From the human T2T-CHM13v2.0 reference genome, Homo sapiens: 64,000 nucleotides of DNA. Under the pieces are notes generated by a model. That model was given only the letters and a program-made list of their open reading frames with translations, was not told the DNA's origin and ran no database searches. Shown piece by piece: positions 13,498-57,750 of this stretch; position 1 is the stretch's first letter; each line of letters opens with the position of its first letter. The position numbers and the translations under genes are program-made. The stretch is from the NCBI RefSeq assembly GCF_009914755.1, contig NC_060939.1, one strand, 5' to 3'.

Positions 13498-15007
13498 TTT
13501 CCTAATGTTCTGTTAATTGCTAGAGAGTGTGTAGAACAGTAAGATTCAGGTAAGTAGTATTTATGCCTGAAAATGGGCAGGCATGTTTTTTTTTTTCTCC
13601 TACCATTATTGTGTATGTGGGAGAAGGTTGTGTCAAACTTGTCAGGAGTGGAGCTGGTTTTATGTTTTGCTGTTGCTGGGTTTGTCTTCAGTGTACCACT
13701 GGCTTCATTCCTCTGCTATTACTTTAACTTTAGGGTGAGAATTAGTTTGCTGGATAGTTTTTCTTGAAGTTCCTAATCCCACCCTCAGGTTTTAGCCTTC
13801 CCTGTGTTCCTGAGTTTCAGAATAGGTCACTCTCCAAGGTATCTTACTTGCCAACAGCAAACTGTTGGTGTTTGATTTTCCTGCTGATGAGGCCAGGGGA
13901 ATTCCCTGTTGTCTTAGTTTAGCCTCATTCTTCAGTAGATCCTATGTCCCTATGTCTAAGGGTGGTGCTTTCTTAATCCTTTCACTCCAGTACTAGCAAA
14001 AAATTTCTAATGGTCTAGATCCAGAATGGTTTTGTGGCTCCTCCCCCAACGGTTGGAAGTTTTTTCATCCCCAGCTTCCAGCTCACTTGTGGCCTAGGGA
14101 TGACATGGTTTGCTATCCACCCCTCCAAACCCCATACCCCAGCTGGTTAGGTCTTTTGTTCTTAGTGGACAAAGGACCAAGCATAGCATGATCTCTTTCC
14201 CACAACTTGGTTACTACCATTTTCTAAGGCTCATCTTCATTGGATGCTTCTTCTGGTCTCTTGCTCTCTCCCAAATCTTTCTAACGAACACCTCATGAGC
14301 CCTAGGGAGAAGAGCCTATGAATGGGTGCAAATTCGTGTCATGTACATGGCTCCAAAGGATTTTATACTCTTATTTTAGCTCACATCAGCCTTTAGCAAT
14401 TTGTTTAAAATTTTTGGCTGAATTAATCTTATATACTTTTTAGTGGCCCCATCTTCCTGGTTCTGCCTAGGTGAGCCAGCCTCTTGCCCTTTGTGCTATT
14501 ATTGTTATATATTTTGTTTGTCTATATTTTTTTAACCCACACGACTTTATTGTCGTTATTTTTTTAAATGCTCAACATTCCCTTATATTACCAATAGATT
14601 TAACTTTTCTGAACTGTACTTTTTCTAAATTCCTTCATGTACTACTGTGCTTCCATTCATTCTTGTTTAGCTTTAAAAAAAATTGTATCTTTTTTTCTTA
14701 TAGTGTAGTTCTGCTTGCAATAAATTGCCTTCATTTTTCAAAGAGGTTCTAACTGAGTATAGAACTCTATACTCAGTTTTATAGTTGGCAGTTATATTTT
14801 CCTTTAGCACTTTACATATGCCATTCTATTGCCTTTGGCTTCCAAAAATTCTGTAGAAAAGTCAGTCTTATGTCCTGTTGCTTCTTTGAAGGCAACATGT
14901 TTCTTTTGTCTGTTTTTACAATTTTCTCTTTTCATTAGTTTTCAGCTATTTGACTTTAATATTCTTGGGTGTGGTCTCCTTTGTATTTTTCTTGGACTTC
15001 TCTAAAC

Positions 15008-16546
15008 TTTTTTTTTAATTTTAGTTTTTTATTTTATTTTACTTTAAGTTCTGGGATACATGTGCTGAATGTGCAGGTTTGTTACATAGGTATACATGGG
15101 CCATGGTGGTTTGCTGCACCTATCCACCCATCATCTAGGTTTTAAACCCTGCATGTATTAGGTATTTGTCCTAGTGCTCTCCCTCCTCTTGCCCCCCACA
15201 CCCTGACAGGCCCTGGTGTGTGATGTTCCCCTCCCTGTGTCCATGTGTTCTCATTGTCAACTCCCACTTATGAGTGAGAACATGCAGTGTTTGGTTTTCT
15301 GTTCCCGTGTTAGTTTGCTGAGGATGATGGTTTCCAGCTTCATCCATGTCCCTGCAAAGGACATGAACCCATTCTTTTTTATGGTTGAATAGTATTCCAT
15401 GGTGAATATGTGCCACATTTTCTTTATCTAGTCTATCATTGATGGGCATTTGGGTTGGTCCAAGTCTTTGCTATTGTAAAAGGTGCTGCAGTAAACAGAC
15501 GTGTGCATGTGTCTTTATAGTAGAATGGTTTATAATCCTTTGAGTATATACCCAATAATGGGATTGCTGGGTCAAATGGTATTTCTGGTTCTAGATCCTT
15601 GAGGAATCACCACACTGTCTTCCACAGTGGTTGAACTAATTTACACTCCTACCAACAGTGTAAAAGCGTTCCTATTTCTCCGCATCCTTGCCAGCATCTG
15701 TTGCTTCCTGATAGCCGTTCTAACTGGTGTGAGATGGTATTTCATTGTGGTTTTGATTTGCATTTCTCTAATGATCAGTGATGATGAGCCTTTTTTCATG
15801 TTTGTTGGCTGCATAAATGTCTTCTTTTGAGAATTGTCTGCTCATATCCTTCGCCCAGTTTTTGATGGGGTTGTTTGTTTTTTTTTCTTGTAAATTTGTT
15901 TAAGATCGTTGTAGATTCTGGATATTAGACCTTTGTCAGATGGATAGATTGCAACAATTTTCTCCCATTCTGTAGGTTGCCTGTTCAGTCTGATGATAGT
16001 TTTTTTGTTTTTGCTATGTAGAAGCTCTTCAGTTTAATTAGATCCCATTTGTCAATTTTGGCCTCTGTTGCAATTGCTTTTGGTATTTTAGTCATGAAGT
16101 CTTTGTCCGTGCCTATGTCCTGAATGGTATTGCCTAGGTTTTCTTCCAGGGTTTTTATGGTTTTAGGTTTTACGTTTAAGCCTTTAATCCATCTTGAGTT
16201 AATTTTTGTTTAAGGTTTAAGGAAGGGGTCCAGTTTCTGTTTTCTGTGTATGGCTAGCCAGTTTTCCCAGCACCATTTATTAAGTAGGAAATCCTTTCCC
16301 CATTGGTTGTTTTTATCAGGTTTGTTGAAGATCAGATGGTTGTAGATGTGTGGTGTTATTTCTGAGGCCTCTGTTTTGTTCCGTTGGTCTATAGATCTGT
16401 TTTGGTACCAGTACTATGCTGTTTTGGTTACTGTAGCCTTACAGTTTGAAGTCAGGTAGCATGTTGCCTCCAGCTTTGTTCTTCTTGCCCAGGATTGTCT
16501 TGGCTATATGGGCTTTTTTGGTTCCATATGAAATTCAAAGTAGTTG
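15008..16546 (-). mobile_element. 5'-truncated L1PA8-like element
   Basis: 3' UTR catctaggttttaaaccctgcatgtattaggtatttgtcctagtgctctcc fits L1PA8. ORF2 C-terminal sequence runs to aaattcaaagtagtt. Confidence 0.9.
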
Positions 16547-16919
16547 TTTTTTTTCTATGTATTCATTTCATTAGAGAATTAGGTATACCTCACATTACAT
16601 GGCCAAGGCCAAAAAATTTTGCACAGTTAGAATGTGTTGAAGAAACCAGCCACAATTTAACCAGATTAGATTTCAACAAGGAGATGACTGTATTCCTCCA
16701 AATAACCTTCATTTAGGAAGATGACATTCCTCCAATTTGTGGAAAGACAATAAATGCCCTTTCTGCTCTCTGCCACTGAGGAAGAAATTCTCCCGTTTGA
16801 GGGACCAACACTATTTCGTTTTTTTTTTCTCTTTTCCCTTTTTCTTTCTTTGGTTTCCCCTTTCCACGAAGCTTCTTTAGTCGTTTTTGCTCATCCTTAA
16901 AATCCTGATGCTCATCTCT
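16547..16919 (-). pseudogene. MRPS33: 5'-truncated retrocopy of mitochondrial ribosomal protein S33 (C-terminal CDS + 3' UTR + A8)
   Basis: Minus strand from 16919 translates [30 protein letters not shown], matching the recalled MRPS33 C-terminus [38 protein letters not shown] at 16811-16813, then ~255 nt of presumed UTR and an A-run at 16547-16554. Confidence 0.88.
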
Positions 16920-18718
16920 TTTATAGATTCTGGTACTGCATTAAAATTTTCAATATTTTTATTCAACCTATTCTTTCCTATATGTTCTTTACAATATTTA
17001 TTATTGTCATTTTAATCTCCTTGTATGATAAACATTAATATCTATAGCATTTGTGGGTCTCCTTCTATTCTCTATTTTTAAACCTGATTATTGCACATAT
17101 TATCCTTTCTCCTTGTATGTCTTGTAATGCCATATATAGTGTATGAAAGTATCATAGAGAAGGAGATGATGTATATTCCACCAGCAAGTGTTTCATCTTT
17201 TCTCTGCAAGGCAGATAATGTGAAAGGCTGATTCCCTCAATCCAAAAAAGATTAGGTTAGTTGCGGGTTGCCGTTTTAGTAAATTACAGTGCACCACTGG
17301 AGTGTCTTTGGGCCCATCATCCCATTTTGACTGAGTCCGCCATATTTTGTCTCCCCAGCCTGGGTACTGTGAGAGATTCATTTCTTTCCTTGGGAAATTT
17401 TGAGATTAGCTTTTTAGCCTCTGCTTTCTAGAAAATGTCTTTATGGGGATATGGGTAGTATTTTTGAAGCAGTTCTTCCTTGTGGGACTTTCTCTCTTAA
17501 ACACTATATTTATTCTGCCTTTTAGAAGCTTATTGCTGAACTTTTCCACTTTCCCCACAGGCCCAAAACTCAGTAAATATCTCATGAGGAAAGTTTCTCA
17601 TAGGTTTTGGGTTCCTCAAAAATTCAGTCTGTCATGACAACCTCAGCTACCAAGAGATCCACGTTTTTTTTTTTTCCTCACCCACTCAGTCCGTCCCTCT
17701 ATCTGCATCAAGTTCAGTCCTTAATCCAAGCTTAGAATTAGCAAATTTCCTGGGGGTAAGAAAATTGATTCTAGCAAAATCTTATTAAAAAGGGGTCTTC
17801 CTCCTCTGGAATATTATCTAGTCCTTGCTTCTACATTACTCTAATGTCTTTAAAAATATGATTTTTGTCATTTATTTATTTTTCCTCTAATTGCGTATTT
17901 GGAACATTGGTTTGATATGACATTTTAAATTTACTCACAACATACATACATATATATATTTTTAACTTTAACGGGAAAAAAGCATGCATGTACTTGCCAG
18001 TGACAAGGATTTTAAAAATGCTTTACTTGGTGTTTGCATACAGAAATGTACCTCATGAATTTATAGTTTTCTCATGTTTTAAAGTATTTGAAACCACCAA
18101 CCTTTATACTTTGTTGAGAAGAGCTAGGGAAGTGAATGACATATAGGAGGCTTTGGCCATAAAAGTGAACTGTGTTAAACAGGAGACCTGTTAAGGAATA
18201 ATTTTTAAAAATTAAGACTTATCTCTTGTCTGGATACTATAGTGAATATGTGTCAAAGATTTCTTAACTCATTATCAAGGGAATCAACAAGATGGTAAAG
18301 CTGGTTCAAACAAGAATTTGAGGAACCTAAGGTATATAGTTATCTAGTCAAAGGAAAGCTAAAATGAGTTTGCTAATAGATAGTGTTTAATGTCCTACAG
18401 GGGAAGAAAACCACAACCACTGGCATTACCTTTACTTCCATAGAGAAATCTAAAAGTTAACACCTAATTTTATGGAATTTAAGCCCTAATTAAGAGTAAA
18501 GAGTAAGTCAAGCAAAAATAAAATCCTCTAAATAATTCAGTAATTCTTGGAAAGGGCCGTTGCACAATAATTTAGAGTGACATTAAAAAGGTATGTATTC
18601 ATATTTTTGCCTTACTCCAAAGTACAGACAAATTTTCTTAGCATAATTTACTAAAGTGAAGCAAACTACCCAGAAATATTGTTTGCGTTCACAAAATTTT
18701 AAAAATGTGGCATGTCTA

Positions 18719-49432: not shown

Positions 49433-50208
49433 ACAGCGCATCCTACTTTCCATTGCTGGTCTATTATGATCCCTGCACCAGCTCTGTCAAGTAGGCTAGC
49501 CACTGACATTCTTGCACAGATTCATCAGTGGAAGCCTGGACAGGTTAAAGATAGGTGGCTAGATAATGAGTCATTGCAAATCAGAATAGCAAGTCTTCTG
49601 AGCAAAGGGAAAGCAGAGAAAAAGAGGGTCAGGGAGCACAGAACAGAGGCAGCTAATCCAACTGGAGATGGAAACCCTTTCAGGAGTTCCAATGCCAGTC
49701 CTTCAGTGGCGCAACCCTGAAACCTCAACAGAGTTTTCAAAATGACATGCACAGGCTTCCACATTTGGGCTCAGTCCCAACTCTCCTTCCGATTGCAGAG
49801 AGAGGTTGCTCTGGAAAGTCATAGGGAAGGGCCCTACAGATGACCTCGGACGAACACCCTCTCAACACCCAAGTCTAGAACCCTTCAGAATTTTCTGGAG
49901 CTGCCTCCTTCTGCCCTGGCATTTGCACCCACAGCTGTCTGTGCCTTACAGTGTACTTCTCTCCCCTTCTCCCTTGGTGACTCCTTATTTCTTTTTTTTT
50001 TTAATTATACTTTAAGTTTTAGGGTACATGTGCACATTGTGCAGGTTAGTTACTTATGTATACATGTGCCATGCTGGTGCGCTGCACCCACTAACTCGTC
50101 ATCTAGCATTAGGTATATCTCCCAATGCTATCCCTCCCCCCTCCCCCCACCCCACAACAGTCCCCAGAGTGTGATATTCCCCTTCCTGTGTCCATGTGAT
50201 CTCATTGT

Positions 50209-54036
<3,828 letters not shown>

Positions 54037-54099
54037 TATGATGTTAGCTGGTTATTTTGCTCGTTAGTTGATGCAGTTTCTTCCTAGTCTCGATGGTCT

Positions 54100-55116
54100 T
54101 TACATTTTGGCATGATTTTGCAGCGGCTGGTACCGGTTGTTCCTTTCCATGTTTAGTGCTTCCTTCAGGAGCTCTTGTAAGGCCGGCCTGGTGGTGACAA
54201 AATCTCTCAGCATTTGCTTGTCTGTAAAGTATTTTATTTCTCCTTCACTTATGAAGCTTGGTTTGGCTGGATATGAAATTCTGGGTTGAAAATTCTTGTC
54301 TTTAAGAATGTTGAATATTGGCCCCCACTCTCTTCTGGCTTGTAGGGTTTCTGCCGAGAGATCCGCTGTTAGTCTGATGGCCTTCCCTTTGAGGGTAACC
54401 CGACCTTTCTCTGTGGCTGCCCTTAACATTTTTTCCTTCATTTCAACTTTGGTGAATCTGACAATTATGTGTCTTGGAGTTGCTCTTCTCGAGGAGTATC
54501 TTTGTGGCGTTCTCTGTATTTCCTGAATCTGAACGTTGGCCTGCCTTGCTAGATTGGGGAAGTTCTCCTGGATAATATCCTGCAGAGTGTTTTCCAACTT
54601 GGTTCCATTCTCCCCATCACTTTCAGGTACACCAATCAGATGTAGATTTGGTCTTTTCACATAGTCCCATATTTCTTGGAGGCTTTGCTCATTTCTTTTT
54701 ATTATTTTTTCTCTAAACTTCCCTTCTAGCTTCATTTCATTCATTTCATCTTCCATCGCTGATACCCTTTCTTCCAGTTGATCGCGTCGGCTCCTGAGGC
54801 TTCTGCATTCTTCACGTAGCTCTCGAGCCTTGGTTTTCAGCTCCATCAGCTCCTTTAAGCACTTCTCTGTATTGGTTATTCTAGTTATACCTTCTTCTAA
54901 ATTTTTTTCAAAGTTTTCAACTTCTTTGCCTTTGGTTTGAATATCCTCCCGTAGCTCAGAGTAATTTGATCGTCTGAAGCCTTCTTCTCTCAGCTCGTCA
55001 AAGTCATTCTCCGTCCAGCTTTGTTCCATTGCTGGTGAGGAACTGCGTTCCTTTGGAGGAGGAGAGGTGCTCTGATTTTTAGAGTTTCCAGTTTTTCTGT
55101 TCTGTTTTTTCCCCAT
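54100..55116 (-). CDS. LINE-1 ORF1p (338 aa, open)
   Basis: MGKKQNRKTGNSK...QNHAKM. REKG reads TEKG and YPAKLS reads YPAKPS; ARR intact. Confidence 0.9.
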   Translation of the reverse strand: MGKKQNRKTGNSKNQSTSPPPKERSSSPAMEQSWTENDFDELREEGFRRSNYSELREDIQTKGKEVENFEKNLEEGITRITNTEKCLKELMELKTKARELREECRSLRSRRDQLEERVSAMEDEMNEMKLEGKFREKIIKRNEQSLQEIWDYVKRPNLHLIGVPESDGENGTKLENTLQDIIQENFPNLARQANVQIQEIQRTPQRYSSRRATPRHIIVRFTKVEMKEKMLRAATEKGRVTLKGKAIRLTADLSAETLQARREWGPIFNILKDKNFQPRISYPAKPSFISEGEIKYFTDKQMLRDFVTTRPALQELLKEALNMERNNRYQPLQNHAKM

Positions 55117-56024
55117 CTTTGTGGTTTTATCTACTTTTCGTCTTTGATGATGGTGATGTACAGATGGGTTTTTGGTGTGGTTGTCCTTTCTGTTTGTTAG
55201 TTTTCCTTCTTACAGAGAGGACCCTCAGCTGCAGGTCTGTTGGAGTACCCTGCCGTGTGAGGCGTCAGTGTGCCCCTGCTGGGGGGTGCCTCCCAGTTAG
55301 GCTGCTCGGGGGTCAGGGGTCAGGGACCCACTTGAGGAGGCAGTCTGCCCCTTCTCAGATCTCCAGCTGCGTGCTGGGAGAACCACTGCTCTCTTCAAAG
55401 CTGTCAGACAGGGACATTTAAGCCTGCAGAGGTTACTGCTGTCTTTTTGTTTGTCTGCGCCCTGCCCCCAGAGGTGGAGCCTACAGAGGCAGGCAGGCCT
55501 CCTTGAGCTGTGGTGGGCTCCACCCAGTTGGAGCTTCCGGGCTGCTTTGTTTACCTAATCAAGCCTGGGCAATGGTGGGCGCCCCTCCCCCAGCCTCGCT
55601 GTCGCCTTGCAGTTTGATCTCAGACTGCTGTGCTAGCAATCAGCGAGACTCCGTGAGCGTAGGACCCTCCGAGCCAGGTGCGGGATATAATCTCGTGGTG
55701 CATCGTTTTTTAAGCCCGTCGGAAAAGCGCAGTATTCGGGTGGGAGTGACCCGATTTTCCAGGTGCCGTCCGTCACCCCTTTCTTTGACTCAGAAAGGGA
55801 ACTCCCTGACCCCTTGCGCTTCCCAAGTGAGGCAATGCCTCGCCCTGCTTCTGCTCGCGCAGGGTGCGCGCACCCACTGACCTGCGCCCACTGTCTGGCA
55901 CTCCCTAGTGAGATGAACCCGGTACCTCAGATGGAAATGCAGAAATCACCCGTCTTCTGCGTCGCTCACGCTGGGAGCTGTAGACCGGAGCTGTTCCTAT
56001 TCGGCCATCTTGGCTCCTCCCCCC
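55117..56024 (-). promoter_or_regulatory. L1 5' UTR: CpG-rich internal sense promoter with YY1 site, plus antisense promoter
   Basis: caagatggcc YY1 motif near the 5' end; many CpGs retained at 55600-56010. Confidence 0.8.
55572..55880 (+). CDS. L1 antisense ORF0-like frame (102 aa, C-terminally extended)
   Basis: MVGAPPPASLSPCSLISDCCASNQRDSV... from ATG 55572, within ORF-track entry 55503-55880. Confidence 0.55.
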   Translation: MVGAPPPASLSPCSLISDCCASNQRDSVSVGPSEPGAGYNLVVHRFLSPSEKRSIRVGVTRFSRCRPSPLSLTQKGNSLTPCASQVRQCLALLLLAQGARTH

Positions 56025-57750
56025 TTGTGGGAAGTTTTTAATTATTATTATGGATTCAATATCTTGTTATGAATCTATTCAGATTTTCTCTTTATTCTCA
56101 AGTCAAATTGACCAGTTTGTCTTTCTAGGAATATACTCATTTCATCTAGGCTACTGAGTTCATTGGCAAACAATTATTCATTCCCTTATAGTCCTTTTGG
56201 TTTCTGTAAGGTAGGCAGATATCTGCCCCCTTCTTTATTCTTAATGTTAGCAATTTAAGTTTTCCCCTCTCTTTTCCTTTTCAGTCTAGCTAAAGGTTTG
56301 TCAGTTTTGTGAATCATATCAAAGAACCAACTTCTATTGATTTTCTCTATTGTTTTTCTATTTTCTGTTTTATGTATTTCTACTCTAATCTTTATTATTT
56401 TCTTCCTTCTACTTGCTTTGAATTTAGTTTACTATCCTTTTTCTAGTTTATTAAGGCAGACATTTAGGCTTTCTATTTGAGATCTTTTTTTAAATATAGG
56501 CCTTTATAGCTAGACATTTCTAAGTACAGCTTAATTGTGTTCCATATATTGTACTTTCATTTTCATTAATCTCAAGGTATTTCCTAATTTCCCTTGTGAT
56601 TTCATCTTTGACAATTGATTATTTAGGATTATGTCATTCAATTTCCACATATCTGAGAATTTTCCAAATTTCCTTCTCTTATTGATTTTTAATTTTATTC
56701 AATTTTTGTTGGAGGGCACATTTATTGAGGCTTGTTTTATGGCCTAACATATGATCTTTTCTGGAAAATATCTCATGGGCACTTGTGGAGAATGTGTATA
56801 TCACTGTTTGAGGTGGAATGTTCATAGATGTCTATTAGGTCTAGTTGGTTTATAGCATTTTTCAAATCTTCTGCTTTCTTGTTGATAGTCTATTGGTTCT
56901 ATCCATTATTGAAACTGGGTTACTGAAATCTCTCTTATTGTTGAATTGTCTTATTTCTCCTTCAATTCTCTCAATCTTTGCTTTATATATTTTGAAGCTC
57001 TGTTGTTAGGTGCATATATATTTGTAATTGTTTTGTGTTTGTTGAATTGACCCTTTTATTTATGTTCCTAATGCGTTGATCCTTTTATTATTAAAAAAGT
57101 CCTTCTTTGTCTCTGTTAACACTTTTTGCTTTGACGTCTATTTCATCTGATATAAATATAGCTGCTCCAATTCTTTTTTGTTTACTGTTTGCATGCTATA
57201 TGTTTTGTCATCTTTTTCTTTCAACCTATTTGTACATTTGAATCTAAAGTGCATCATATTGTAGGCAGCATATCGTTGGATCATGTTTTTATCTATTCTA
57301 CAGTTCTTGGCCTTTTGATTGGAGTGGTTTTTCCACTAAATTTGATTAGTGTTTAGTTTACATTTAATAAAATTACTGATGAGGTAAGATTTATGTCTGC
57401 TATTCTCCATTTGTTTTCTATATGTCTTTCATCTTTTTTGTTTCTTTATTCCTTTATTACTTCCTTCTTTTGTGTTAAATAAATATTATCTAGCATATAA
57501 TTTTAATTCTCTTGTTGTTTCTTTTACTATTTTTTTGAGAAATACTCAGTGGTTTTCTTGGAGATTGCAGTTAACATCTTAACTTAAGCAATCAAGTTCA
57601 GATTAATACCATTGTAATTTTAATAGTATATAAAAATTTGCTCCGATATAGCTCCACTTCTTCCTCCCTCCTTTGTGCTATTATTGTCACACATGTCATT
57701 ATATTATAAACCCATCAATGCAGTTTTATAATTAATAATTTATGCAGTTG
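56025..57750 (-). mobile_element. L1MB continuation (ORF2 endonuclease region)
   Basis: gggaagtttttaattattatt...ctattcagattttct picks up exactly where 48552 left off. Confidence 0.85.

What the first reader, a model, noticed from the sequence alone, without database searches (positions are those of the whole stretch)
15008..16919. MRPS33 mRNA fragment fused to an L1PA8 3' end: candidate mRNA-L1 template-switch chimera
Seen: on minus, an MRPS33 C-terminal CDS and 3' UTR (absent from the ORF track) run through ...catagAAAAAAAA straight into L1 ORF2 sequence (caactactttgaatttcatatgg) and on to the L1 poly(A). The L1 consensus at this point reads ...tagaaaaaactac, so both templates share a TAGAAAAAA microhomology. 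Known: U6-L1 and other cellular RNA-L1 chimeras have this 5' cellular RNA / 3' L1 layout. Inference: RT primed on L1 RNA and jumped to the 3' end of MRPS33 mRNA. Alternative: the L1 inserted later into the pseudogene's A-tail. The outer flanks match only loosely (cttctctaaact vs cttttatagatt, 8/12), so the TSD does not decide it.
Basis: partly seen in the sequence, partly recalled or inferred. Interest (0 to 1): 0.72.

Follow-up and report, generated by a model that had tools for sequence, protein, structure and literature searches.

The report
MRPS33 retrocopy fragment abutting L1 end
A dead copy of the last exon of the MRPS33 gene sits head-to-tail against the 3' end of an old L1 retrotransposon, and the pair replaced about 350 bases of an even older L1; this genome alone cannot show whether the two arrived in one event or two.

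Summary
The anatomy is real. On the minus strand, 16919-16556 is a retrocopy of the last MRPS33 exon only. It ends at the mRNA's proximal poly(A) site. Then come G+A8+C (16555-16546), 1.5 kb of L1 ORF2/3'UTR (16545-15041) and a 33-nt A-rich tail. L1 copies do read TAG+A-run+CTAC at the breakpoint, so the shared TAGAAAAAA is confirmed.

The proposed 8/12 TSD is chance. The flanks are two parts of one ancient L1 ORF1 region that lie about 331-375 bp apart in four paralogous copies. The composite therefore carries a target-site deletion and no TSD.

Private divergence is 4.4% for the MRPS33 part (16/363) and 4.3-5.7% for the L1 part. This does not separate the possible histories:
- L1 inserted into a fresh A-tail, about 0.42.
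- One template-switch event, about 0.28.
- MRPS33 cDNA primed later at the L1's internal A-run with an upstream deletion, about 0.18.

Two of the five defining features of chimeric retrogenes (full-length 5' part, flanking direct repeats) are not met.

Only primate orthologs can decide. This is an ordinary kind of locus of modest interest.

The parts
16556..16919 (-). 5'-truncated MRPS33 processed retrocopy, last exon only. It holds a remnant of 34 C-terminal codons (16919-16811, frame broken by a 1-nt insertion) plus the 3' UTR up to the proximal poly(A) site.
   Evidence: 92% identity to the chr7 parent over 365 columns. Pfam MRP-S33 at 27.2 bits. It ends where the other retrocopies begin their A-tails.
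16546..16555 (-). Junction: G, A8, C. It may be a short remnant of the MRPS33 poly(A) tail, part of the L1's own TAG+A6 run, or both. It is a zone of microhomology between the two templates.
   Evidence: Sequence. 16 of 21 L1 copies read TAG plus at least 5 A here. None of the 4 polyadenylated retrocopies keeps a G after ATACAT(A/T).
15041..16545 (-). 5'-truncated L1 (primate L1PA type): C-terminal part of ORF2 plus the 3' UTR.
   Evidence: 85.6-88.9% identity to 29 L1 copies of the same genome. 84.7% identity to the 3' 1.5 kb of the 6-kb L1 at 50008-51511. Private divergence 4.3-5.7%.
15008..15040 (-). A-rich 3' tail of the composite, 33 nt, interrupted by T and C.
   Evidence: Sequence and alignment of L1 3' ends.
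16920..17145 (-). Upstream flank: 5'/N-terminal ORF1 region of an ancient L1, same orientation.
   Evidence: Collinear weak matches to 3 of 11 paralogous loci (60.6-65.5% identity, E 3e-9 to 9e-6) and to a second ancient copy in the window.
14488..15007 (-). Downstream flank: C-terminal half of ORF1 of the same ancient L1. In paralogs it lies 331-375 bp from the segment matching the upstream flank, and that stretch is missing here.
   Evidence: Matches in 11 of 11 fetched paralogous loci. It links through the in-window copy 2 to ORF1 of the 6-kb L1, whose ORF is Pfam Transposase_22/Tnp_22_dsRBD.

Best explanation
Shown:
- A last-exon MRPS33 retrocopy and a 1.5-kb L1 3' end lie head-to-tail on the minus strand, joined through G+A8+C.
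- They share one terminal A-rich tail.
- Together they replaced about 331-375 bp of an ancient L1 ORF1 region. There is no target-site duplication.
- Both parts are equally diverged.

Inferred, most likely history (two L1-driven events close in time):
1. An MRPS33 mRNA was reverse-transcribed at a nick in the ancient L1. The cDNA was 5'-truncated and was joined upstream with loss of about 350 bp of target (an L1-type insertion-mediated deletion).
2. Soon after, L1 endonuclease nicked the T-run opposite the fresh A-tail at its border with the 3' UTR. A new L1 was copied there in the same orientation.
3. The L1's truncated 5' end was attached where its own A6 run could pair with the A-rich overhang. 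About 10 nt of A-run were left 5' of the L1, and the rest of the old tail merged with the L1's tail.
For: Anatomy.

Target deletion and absence of a TSD: the upstream flank is found in 3 of 11 paralogs and the downstream flank in 11 of 11. The gaps are 346, 331 and 332 bp, and 375 bp in the in-window copy. The 8/12 repeat is matched by 36% of shuffles.

The 10-nt A-run 5' of the L1 has the size of an L1 target duplication made inside an A-stretch. Levy et al. (PMC2836564, passages read) show that A-stretches inside older elements are strong hotspots for L1-machinery insertions, in the sense orientation, directly after the A-stretch.

A 5'-truncated retrocopy is ordinary: one of the 5 other MRPS33 retrocopies is cut to 185-204 nt.

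The comparative catalogue of Law and Burns (PMC11838501, sections 21 and 25 read) found only 17 mRNA/lncRNA-L1 chimeras in hg38. As described there, they are mostly 5' exons joined to near full-length L1, not 3' exons with a poly(A).
Against: The MRPS33 part is, if anything, slightly less diverged than the L1: 4.4% against 5.7% by the same majority rule. Without the A/G-rich cluster it is 10/338 against 82/1434, p=0.04, but that exclusion was chosen after seeing the data. This history needs MRPS33 to be the older part.

No L1-specific TSD can be seen, because it would consist of A only. Nothing in the structure excludes a single event. My prior odds rest on rough, partly recalled base rates.
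Confidence: 0.42

Rival explanations
1. Single event. Reverse transcription was primed on L1 RNA at the nick in the ancient L1. After about 1.5 kb, at the L1's TAG-A6 run, the T-ended cDNA switched to the A-tail or 3' end of an MRPS33 mRNA and copied its last 364 nt. The cDNA end was then joined upstream with loss of about 350 bp of target.
For: Equal private divergence of the two parts (16/363 against 82/1434, p=0.37). Same orientation and one terminal tail. The breakpoint lies in a sequence shared by both templates. The junction is unique in the genome, and no L1 adjoins the parent gene or the other retrocopies within the 1.5 kb fetched on each side. Template switching by L1 RT to cellular RNAs, mRNAs included, is the published model for chimeric retrogenes (PMC2104539, passages; PMC11838501, sections 21 and 25).
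Against: Two of the five defining features listed in PMC2104539 are not met: the 5' part is not full-length (last exon only) and there are no flanking direct repeats. The mRNA-L1 chimeras catalogued in PMC11838501 have a different build. Equal age within sampling error still allows a gap of several million years: the MRPS33 95% interval is 2.5-7.2%. The microhomology is explained just as well by 5'-end attachment in a two-step history.
Confidence: 0.28
2. Reverse order. The L1, possibly longer at its 5' end, inserted first into the ancient L1. Later an MRPS33 cDNA was primed on the T-run opposite the L1's internal A6. Its 5' end was joined upstream with a deletion that removed the L1's 5' portion, its 5' TSD and about 350 bp of the ancient L1.
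For: It explains three things together: the breakpoint at an A-run of the L1, the short A-run after the MRPS33 3' end, and the fact that the deleted DNA lies on the 5' side of the MRPS33 piece, where L1-type insertion deletions fall (recalled from Gilbert 2002, Symer 2002 and Han 2005). The MRPS33 point estimate is not above that of the L1.
Against: On the nicked strand the site would read T6 followed by C, not the usual TTTT/A (site preference as quoted in PMC2836564). The MRPS33 tail would be only about 5 nt. Near-equal ages would be a coincidence, since most L1 DNA in the genome is much older (inference).
Confidence: 0.18
3. The roughly 350-bp gap in the ancient L1 predates the retro-insertion or is otherwise unrelated to it. 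The insertion then made a short 5-nt TSD (AAAAG, at 16922-16918 and 15011-15007).
For: AAAAG is present at both edges.
Against: A 5-nt A-rich repeat next to an A-tail is expected by chance. An unrelated deletion would need both of its edges to coincide with the edges of the insertion, within the resolution of the alignments.
Confidence: 0.05

Closest known systems
Chimeric retrogenes of the U6-L1 type (Buzdin and colleagues; features as listed in PMC2104539)
   Same: A cellular RNA copy lies 5' and a 5'-truncated L1 lies 3', in the same transcriptional orientation, with one poly(A) at the 3' end.
   Different: The 5' part is not full-length. An A-run separates the parts. There are no flanking direct repeats; instead about 350 bp of target is lost.
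mRNA/lncRNA-LINE-1 chimeras found by multi-species alignment (Law and Burns 2025, PMC11838501)
   Same: An mRNA fragment lies in sense orientation 5' of an L1. Their test of arrival at the same time is exactly the one needed here.
   Different: Their 17 cases are mostly first exons ending at splice donors, fused to near full-length L1, with TSDs. Here a last exon with its poly(A) site is fused to a truncated L1 without a TSD. MRPS33 and TEX9 have no occurrence in the main text or in the one supplementary file held. Supplementary Table 4 was not seen.
Sense-orientation insertion of L1-mobilised elements into A-stretches of older elements (Levy et al. 2009, PMC2836564)
   Same: The new element sits directly after an A-stretch of the older one, on the same strand, with a TSD hidden in the A's.
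   Different: That hotspot is documented there for Alu insertions inside Alu. Here the target would be the tail of a processed pseudogene and the insert an L1.
L1 insertion-mediated deletions
   Same: No TSD, and target DNA is missing at the 5' junction of an L1-machinery insertion.
   Different: Here the loss is inferred from paralogous copies of an ancient repeat, not from an orthologous empty site.

Membership tests
Chimeric retrogene made by L1 RT template switching | The 5' part is a full-length copy of a cellular RNA (PMC2104539) | tested here: not met
   Homology to MRPS33 starts at 16919, within 2 nt of the start of the parent's last exon. Upstream exons seen in the spliced chr4 retrocopy are absent.
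Chimeric retrogene made by L1 RT template switching | The 3' part is a 5'-truncated LINE | tested here: met
   1505 nt of the L1 3' end plus a tail. L1 copies continue upstream of the breakpoint.
Chimeric retrogene made by L1 RT template switching | The parts are directly joined in the same transcriptional orientation | tested here: inconclusive
   The orientation is the same. Between the last sure MRPS33 base (16556) and the first sure L1 base (16545) lie G+A8+C, which could belong to either template.
Chimeric retrogene made by L1 RT template switching | The whole chimera is flanked by short direct repeats | tested here: not met
   The best 12-mer match is 8/12 and is reached by 1815 of 5000 shuffles. 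The flanks are 331-375 bp apart in 4 paralogous copies.
Chimeric retrogene made by L1 RT template switching | Sites of L1 truncation fall at random in the L1 RNA (PMC2104539) | not testable with these tools
   This is a property of a set of chimeras and cannot be judged from one locus. Here the break lies at the L1's TAG plus A-run.
Chimeric retrogene made by L1 RT template switching | Both parts arrive at the same time in the phylogeny (criterion of PMC11838501) | not testable with these tools
   No primate genomes are held. As a proxy, divergence is equal (4.4% against 4.3-5.7%, p=0.37), which allows simultaneous arrival but does not show it.
Processed pseudogene (L1-mediated mRNA retrocopy) | It ends at the mRNA's poly(A) site and is followed by A's | tested here: met
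   It ends at ATACATA, as do the 4 polyadenylated retrocopies. The parent's genomic DNA continues differently.
Processed pseudogene (L1-mediated mRNA retrocopy) | Introns are absent | tested here: inconclusive
   Only one exon is present, so no exon-exon junction can be seen. There is no homology to the parent's last intron.
L1 insertion-mediated deletion | No TSD, and target DNA present before the insertion is missing | tested here: met
   Shown by paralog proxy only. The gaps are 346, 331, 332 and 375 bp in the 4 copies where both flanks could be placed. In 8 of 11 fetched paralogs the upstream flank was not detectable.
L1PA8 subfamily | Diagnostic subfamily positions | not testable with these tools
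   No repeat library was available. Private divergence of 4.3-5.7% fits the 30-40 Myr quoted for L1PA7-L1PA8 (10.1101/2021.04.06.438727, passages) if a rate near 0.15-0.17% per Myr is assumed (recalled).

The most novel reading that the evidence does not exclude
One TPRT event produced a polyadenylated-mRNA-3'-fragment/L1 chimera and at the same time deleted about 350 bp of target. Such a chimera has no TSD and a truncated 5' part. Catalogues that require TSDs or full-length 5' parts would therefore miss the class, and template switching onto mRNA tails could be commoner than the catalogues suggest.
Probability: 0.28. Interest if true: 0.4.

Novelty: new member of a known kind. Interest (0 to 1): 0.24.

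Why it matters
This locus has little importance of its own. It is an unannotated, dead MRPS33 fragment and a dead L1, lying antisense in a TEX9 intron.

It is a useful worked example in two ways:
- The outer "TSD" test cannot separate a chimera from nested insertions.
- An ancient repeat around an insertion can stand in for the empty site, and here it reveals a target deletion.

If orthologs showed the two parts arriving together, the locus would add a TSD-less, poly(A)-bearing mRNA-L1 chimera to the known types.

Tried and rejected
- **More MRPS33 sequence upstream of 16919.** BLAST with word size 7 against the parent and five retrocopies found none; all alignments start at 16919.
- **Copy of a pre-existing composite or read-through transcript.** The 161-nt junction query matches over its full length only at the window itself (1 of 40 scored, 592 candidates). 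The window's L1 part finds only two short, unrelated L1 pieces within the 1.5 kb fetched on each side of the parent and the five retrocopies.
Rejected. My first anchored scan was offset by 2 nt and found nothing. It was redone.
- **Naming the flanks by Pfam.** Five short ORFs, three from the flanks and two from the L1 part, gave nothing useful: one WRC hit at 13.7 bits, below its cut-off. The ORF1 label rests instead on the chain flank, to in-window copy 2, to ORF1 of the 6-kb L1.
- **Upstream flank as a genome query.** It found only itself. Its homology to paralogs is weak and was detectable in 3 of 11 fetched loci.
- **Nucleotide-level placement of the 5' junction against ancient L1 copies.** Not resolvable at about 56% column identity. 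A microhomology of 2-3 nt (AG or AGA) is possible but not shown.
- **The paper on L1PA ages that I wanted.** Not held under the PMC id I tried.
- **Search for the locus in print.**, with MRPS33 among five terms and at least three required, listed 8 of 229 papers. None of the 8 contains MRPS33.

Full report
**Setting.** The window is human T2T chr15:54,064,001-54,128,000. Its whole assembly could be searched. All coordinates below are window coordinates, and the feature is read on the minus strand.

**The MRPS33 part.**
- A 381-nt query over the proposed MRPS33 part found the window itself and nine further matches. They fall at the parent gene on chr7 (92% identity) and at five retrocopy loci: chr4 at 118.4 Mb, chr4 at 37.97 Mb, chr4 at 42.58 Mb, chr20 and chr1.
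- With word size 7, every alignment to the parent and to the retrocopies begins at window 16919. The alignment to the parent ends at 16556, at 92.06% over 365 columns.
- In the parent, the matching stretch is preceded by a pyrimidine-rich intron end and AG. In the spliced chr4:118.4 Mb retrocopy it is preceded by upstream exon sequence. The window matches neither.
- So only the last exon is present, and the copy starts within 2 nt of the exon boundary. I cannot explain that coincidence.
- The frame through 16940-16713 hits Pfam MRP-S33 at its C-terminal end: 27.2 bits, cut-off 25.
- The four polyadenylated retrocopies start their A-tails after ATACAT(A/T). The window copy reads ATACATA at the same point. 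The fragment therefore ends at the mRNA's proximal poly(A) site.

**The L1 part and the junction.**
- After 16556 come G (16555), eight A (16554-16547), C (16546) and then L1 sequence from 16545.
- A 1507-nt query found 41 matches, including the window itself, among 40 scored of 24,752 candidates. The 29 fetched loci are 85.6-88.9% identical to the window copy.
- I aligned the 21 copies that cover the breakpoint, each with 120 nt upstream. All continue as L1 upstream of the breakpoint. 16 of 21 read TAG followed by at least five A and then CTAC or a near variant.
- The L1 body ends at 15041 and is followed by a 33-nt A-rich tail down to 15008.
- A 161-nt query across the junction matches over its full length only at this locus. 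The window's L1 part finds only two short, unrelated L1 pieces within the 1.5 kb fetched on each side of the parent gene and the other retrocopies. The composite was therefore not copied from a pre-existing composite.

**Flanks and the TSD.**
- The 8/12 repeat proposed as a loose TSD is reached by 187 of 20,000 shuffles at a fixed register. When 81 registers near the ends are allowed, 1815 of 5000 shuffles reach it. It is not evidence of a TSD.
- More important, the flanks are repeat DNA. The downstream flank (15007-14488) matches 17 other loci in the genome at 66-90%, and all 11 fetched paralogs.
- The upstream flank found only itself in the genome search. It aligns weakly but collinearly to 3 of those 11 paralogs, at 60.6-65.5% identity with E from 3e-9 to 9e-6. 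It also aligns to a second ancient copy in the window at 13341-12106.
- In all four copies where both flanks can be placed, the segments lie 346, 331, 332 and 375 bp apart. I computed these from the coordinates.
- The in-window copy maps to ORF1 of the 6-kb L1 at 54473-54218. That ORF carries the three L1 ORF1p Pfam domains.
- The composite therefore sits in the ORF1 region of an ancient L1, in the same orientation, and about 331-375 bp of that element are missing exactly where it sits.
- The simplest reading is a retro-insertion that ended with a target-site deletion and no TSD. This kind of outcome is known for the L1 machinery (recalled: Gilbert 2002, Symer 2002, Han 2005; not read here).
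- Caveats: the upstream homology is weak, it was not detectable in 8 of 11 paralogs, and the junctions cannot be placed to the nucleotide.

**Relative age.**
- For the MRPS33 part I polarised the 27 differences from the parent (363 aligned columns, 2 indel columns) with the five other retrocopies. Before counting, I masked three visibly misaligned stretches in the chr1, chr20 and chr4:37.97 Mb copies.
- 16 changes fall on the window branch, 11 on the parent lineage and none is ambiguous. Four of the 16 rest on a single outgroup. Six form a cluster of G/C-to-A changes at 16843-16819.
- That gives 4.4%, with a 95% interval of 2.5-7.2%. The FastTree terminal branch is 0.054, with weak node support.
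- For the L1 part, a consensus-free star estimate from 21 copies over 1522 columns gives 0.054, or 0.051 without 28 CpG-like columns. The FastTree terminal branch is 0.062.
- Private differences from the majority of the other copies are 82/1434 (5.7%). At columns with at least 80% agreement they are 59/1366 (4.3%), and at columns with at least 90% agreement 46/1230 (3.7%).
- The two parts do not differ (Fisher p=0.37). If the clustered changes are dropped, MRPS33 looks younger (10/338, p=0.04), but that exclusion was made after seeing the data.
- With L1PA7 and L1PA8 quoted at about 30 and 40 Myr (10.1101/2021.04.06.438727, passages), the divergence fits that age range. The subfamily name itself could not be tested.

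**Three histories fit the structure.**
- N, the MRPS33 retrocopy came first with the deletion, and an L1 then inserted into its A-tail.
- C, one event with a template switch from L1 RNA to the MRPS33 mRNA tail.
- R, the L1 came first, and an MRPS33 cDNA was later primed on the T-run opposite the L1's internal A6, with an upstream deletion that removed the L1's 5' part and the ancient ORF1 segment.
- In all three, the outer flanks, the single terminal tail and the A-run breakpoint come out the same.

**Arguments that shift the odds.**
- Equal ages are certain under C and only fairly likely under N and R.
- The 10-nt A-run 5' of the L1 has the size expected for a target duplication made inside an A-stretch. 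A-stretches of older elements are strong sense-orientation hotspots for L1-machinery insertions (PMC2836564, passages).
- The comparative catalogue of LINE-1 chimeras found only 17 mRNA/lncRNA-L1 cases in hg38. As described, these are mostly first exons on near full-length L1 with TSDs (PMC11838501, sections 21 and 25). Its Supplementary Table 4 was not available to me. MRPS33 and TEX9 occur neither in the main text nor in the one supplementary file held.
- Under R the priming site would be T6 followed by C, not the usual TTTT/A.
- Weighing these, I put N at about 0.42, C at 0.28 and R at 0.18. The remainder, about 0.12, goes to an unrelated deletion with a 5-nt TSD (0.05) and to unlisted histories. 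These odds rest partly on recalled base rates and are soft.

**Comparison with known families.** The defining features of chimeric retrogenes, as listed in PMC2104539 (passages), fare as follows:
- The 5'-truncated LINE 3' part is met.
- The same orientation is met.
- Direct joining is inconclusive.
- Random truncation sites cannot be judged from one locus.
- A full-length 5' part is not met.
- Flanking direct repeats are not met.

The locus may still have been made by the same mechanism, but it cannot be filed as a member on present evidence. It is at most a new member of known kinds: a nested retro-insertion or an mRNA-L1 chimera, with an L1-type target deletion.

**In print.** I found no mention of this locus. 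MRPS33 is absent from PMC11838501. A library search with MRPS33 among five terms, at least three required, listed 8 of 229 papers, and none of the 8 contains MRPS33.

**Verdict.** Primate orthologs would settle it.

Noticed in passing
window 13497-13391 (-) and 13341-12106 (-): A full-length U6 pseudogene (Rfam U6, 90.1 bits, model positions 1-105 of 105) is followed within about 50 nt, on the same strand, by a second ancient L1 copy that starts in the ORF1 region. This may be an old U6-L1 chimera with an unusually long L1 part. Its ends and TSD were not examined.
   Followed up: partly
window 49980-56054 (-): A roughly 6-kb L1 keeps an open 338-aa ORF1 with all three ORF1p Pfam domains, and an 1177-aa open frame in ORF2. 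It is 84.7% identical to the L1 part studied here.
   Followed up: partly
window 16570-16556; L002-L007: The window copy and all five other MRPS33 retrocopies read AATG(A/C)(A/G)TACA before the poly(A) site, while the chr7 parent reads AATAAATACC. The parent seems to have gained a canonical AATAAA after these retrocopies were made.
   Followed up: no
L003 (chr4 at 118.4 Mb): This spliced MRPS33 retrocopy runs past the proximal poly(A) site into sequence collinear with the parent's downstream genomic DNA. It was therefore made from a longer 3' UTR isoform.
   Followed up: no
window 16843-16819: Six of the 16 private changes of the MRPS33 copy are G/C-to-A changes packed into 25 nt of the A/G-rich coding end, beside a 1-nt insertion. 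They look like slippage or homogenisation rather than independent substitutions.
   Followed up: no
window 16919-16917: The 5' end of the MRPS33 homology falls within 2 nt of the parent's last intron/exon boundary. By chance this would be expected for well under 1 in 50 truncation points. No explanation was found.
   Followed up: partly
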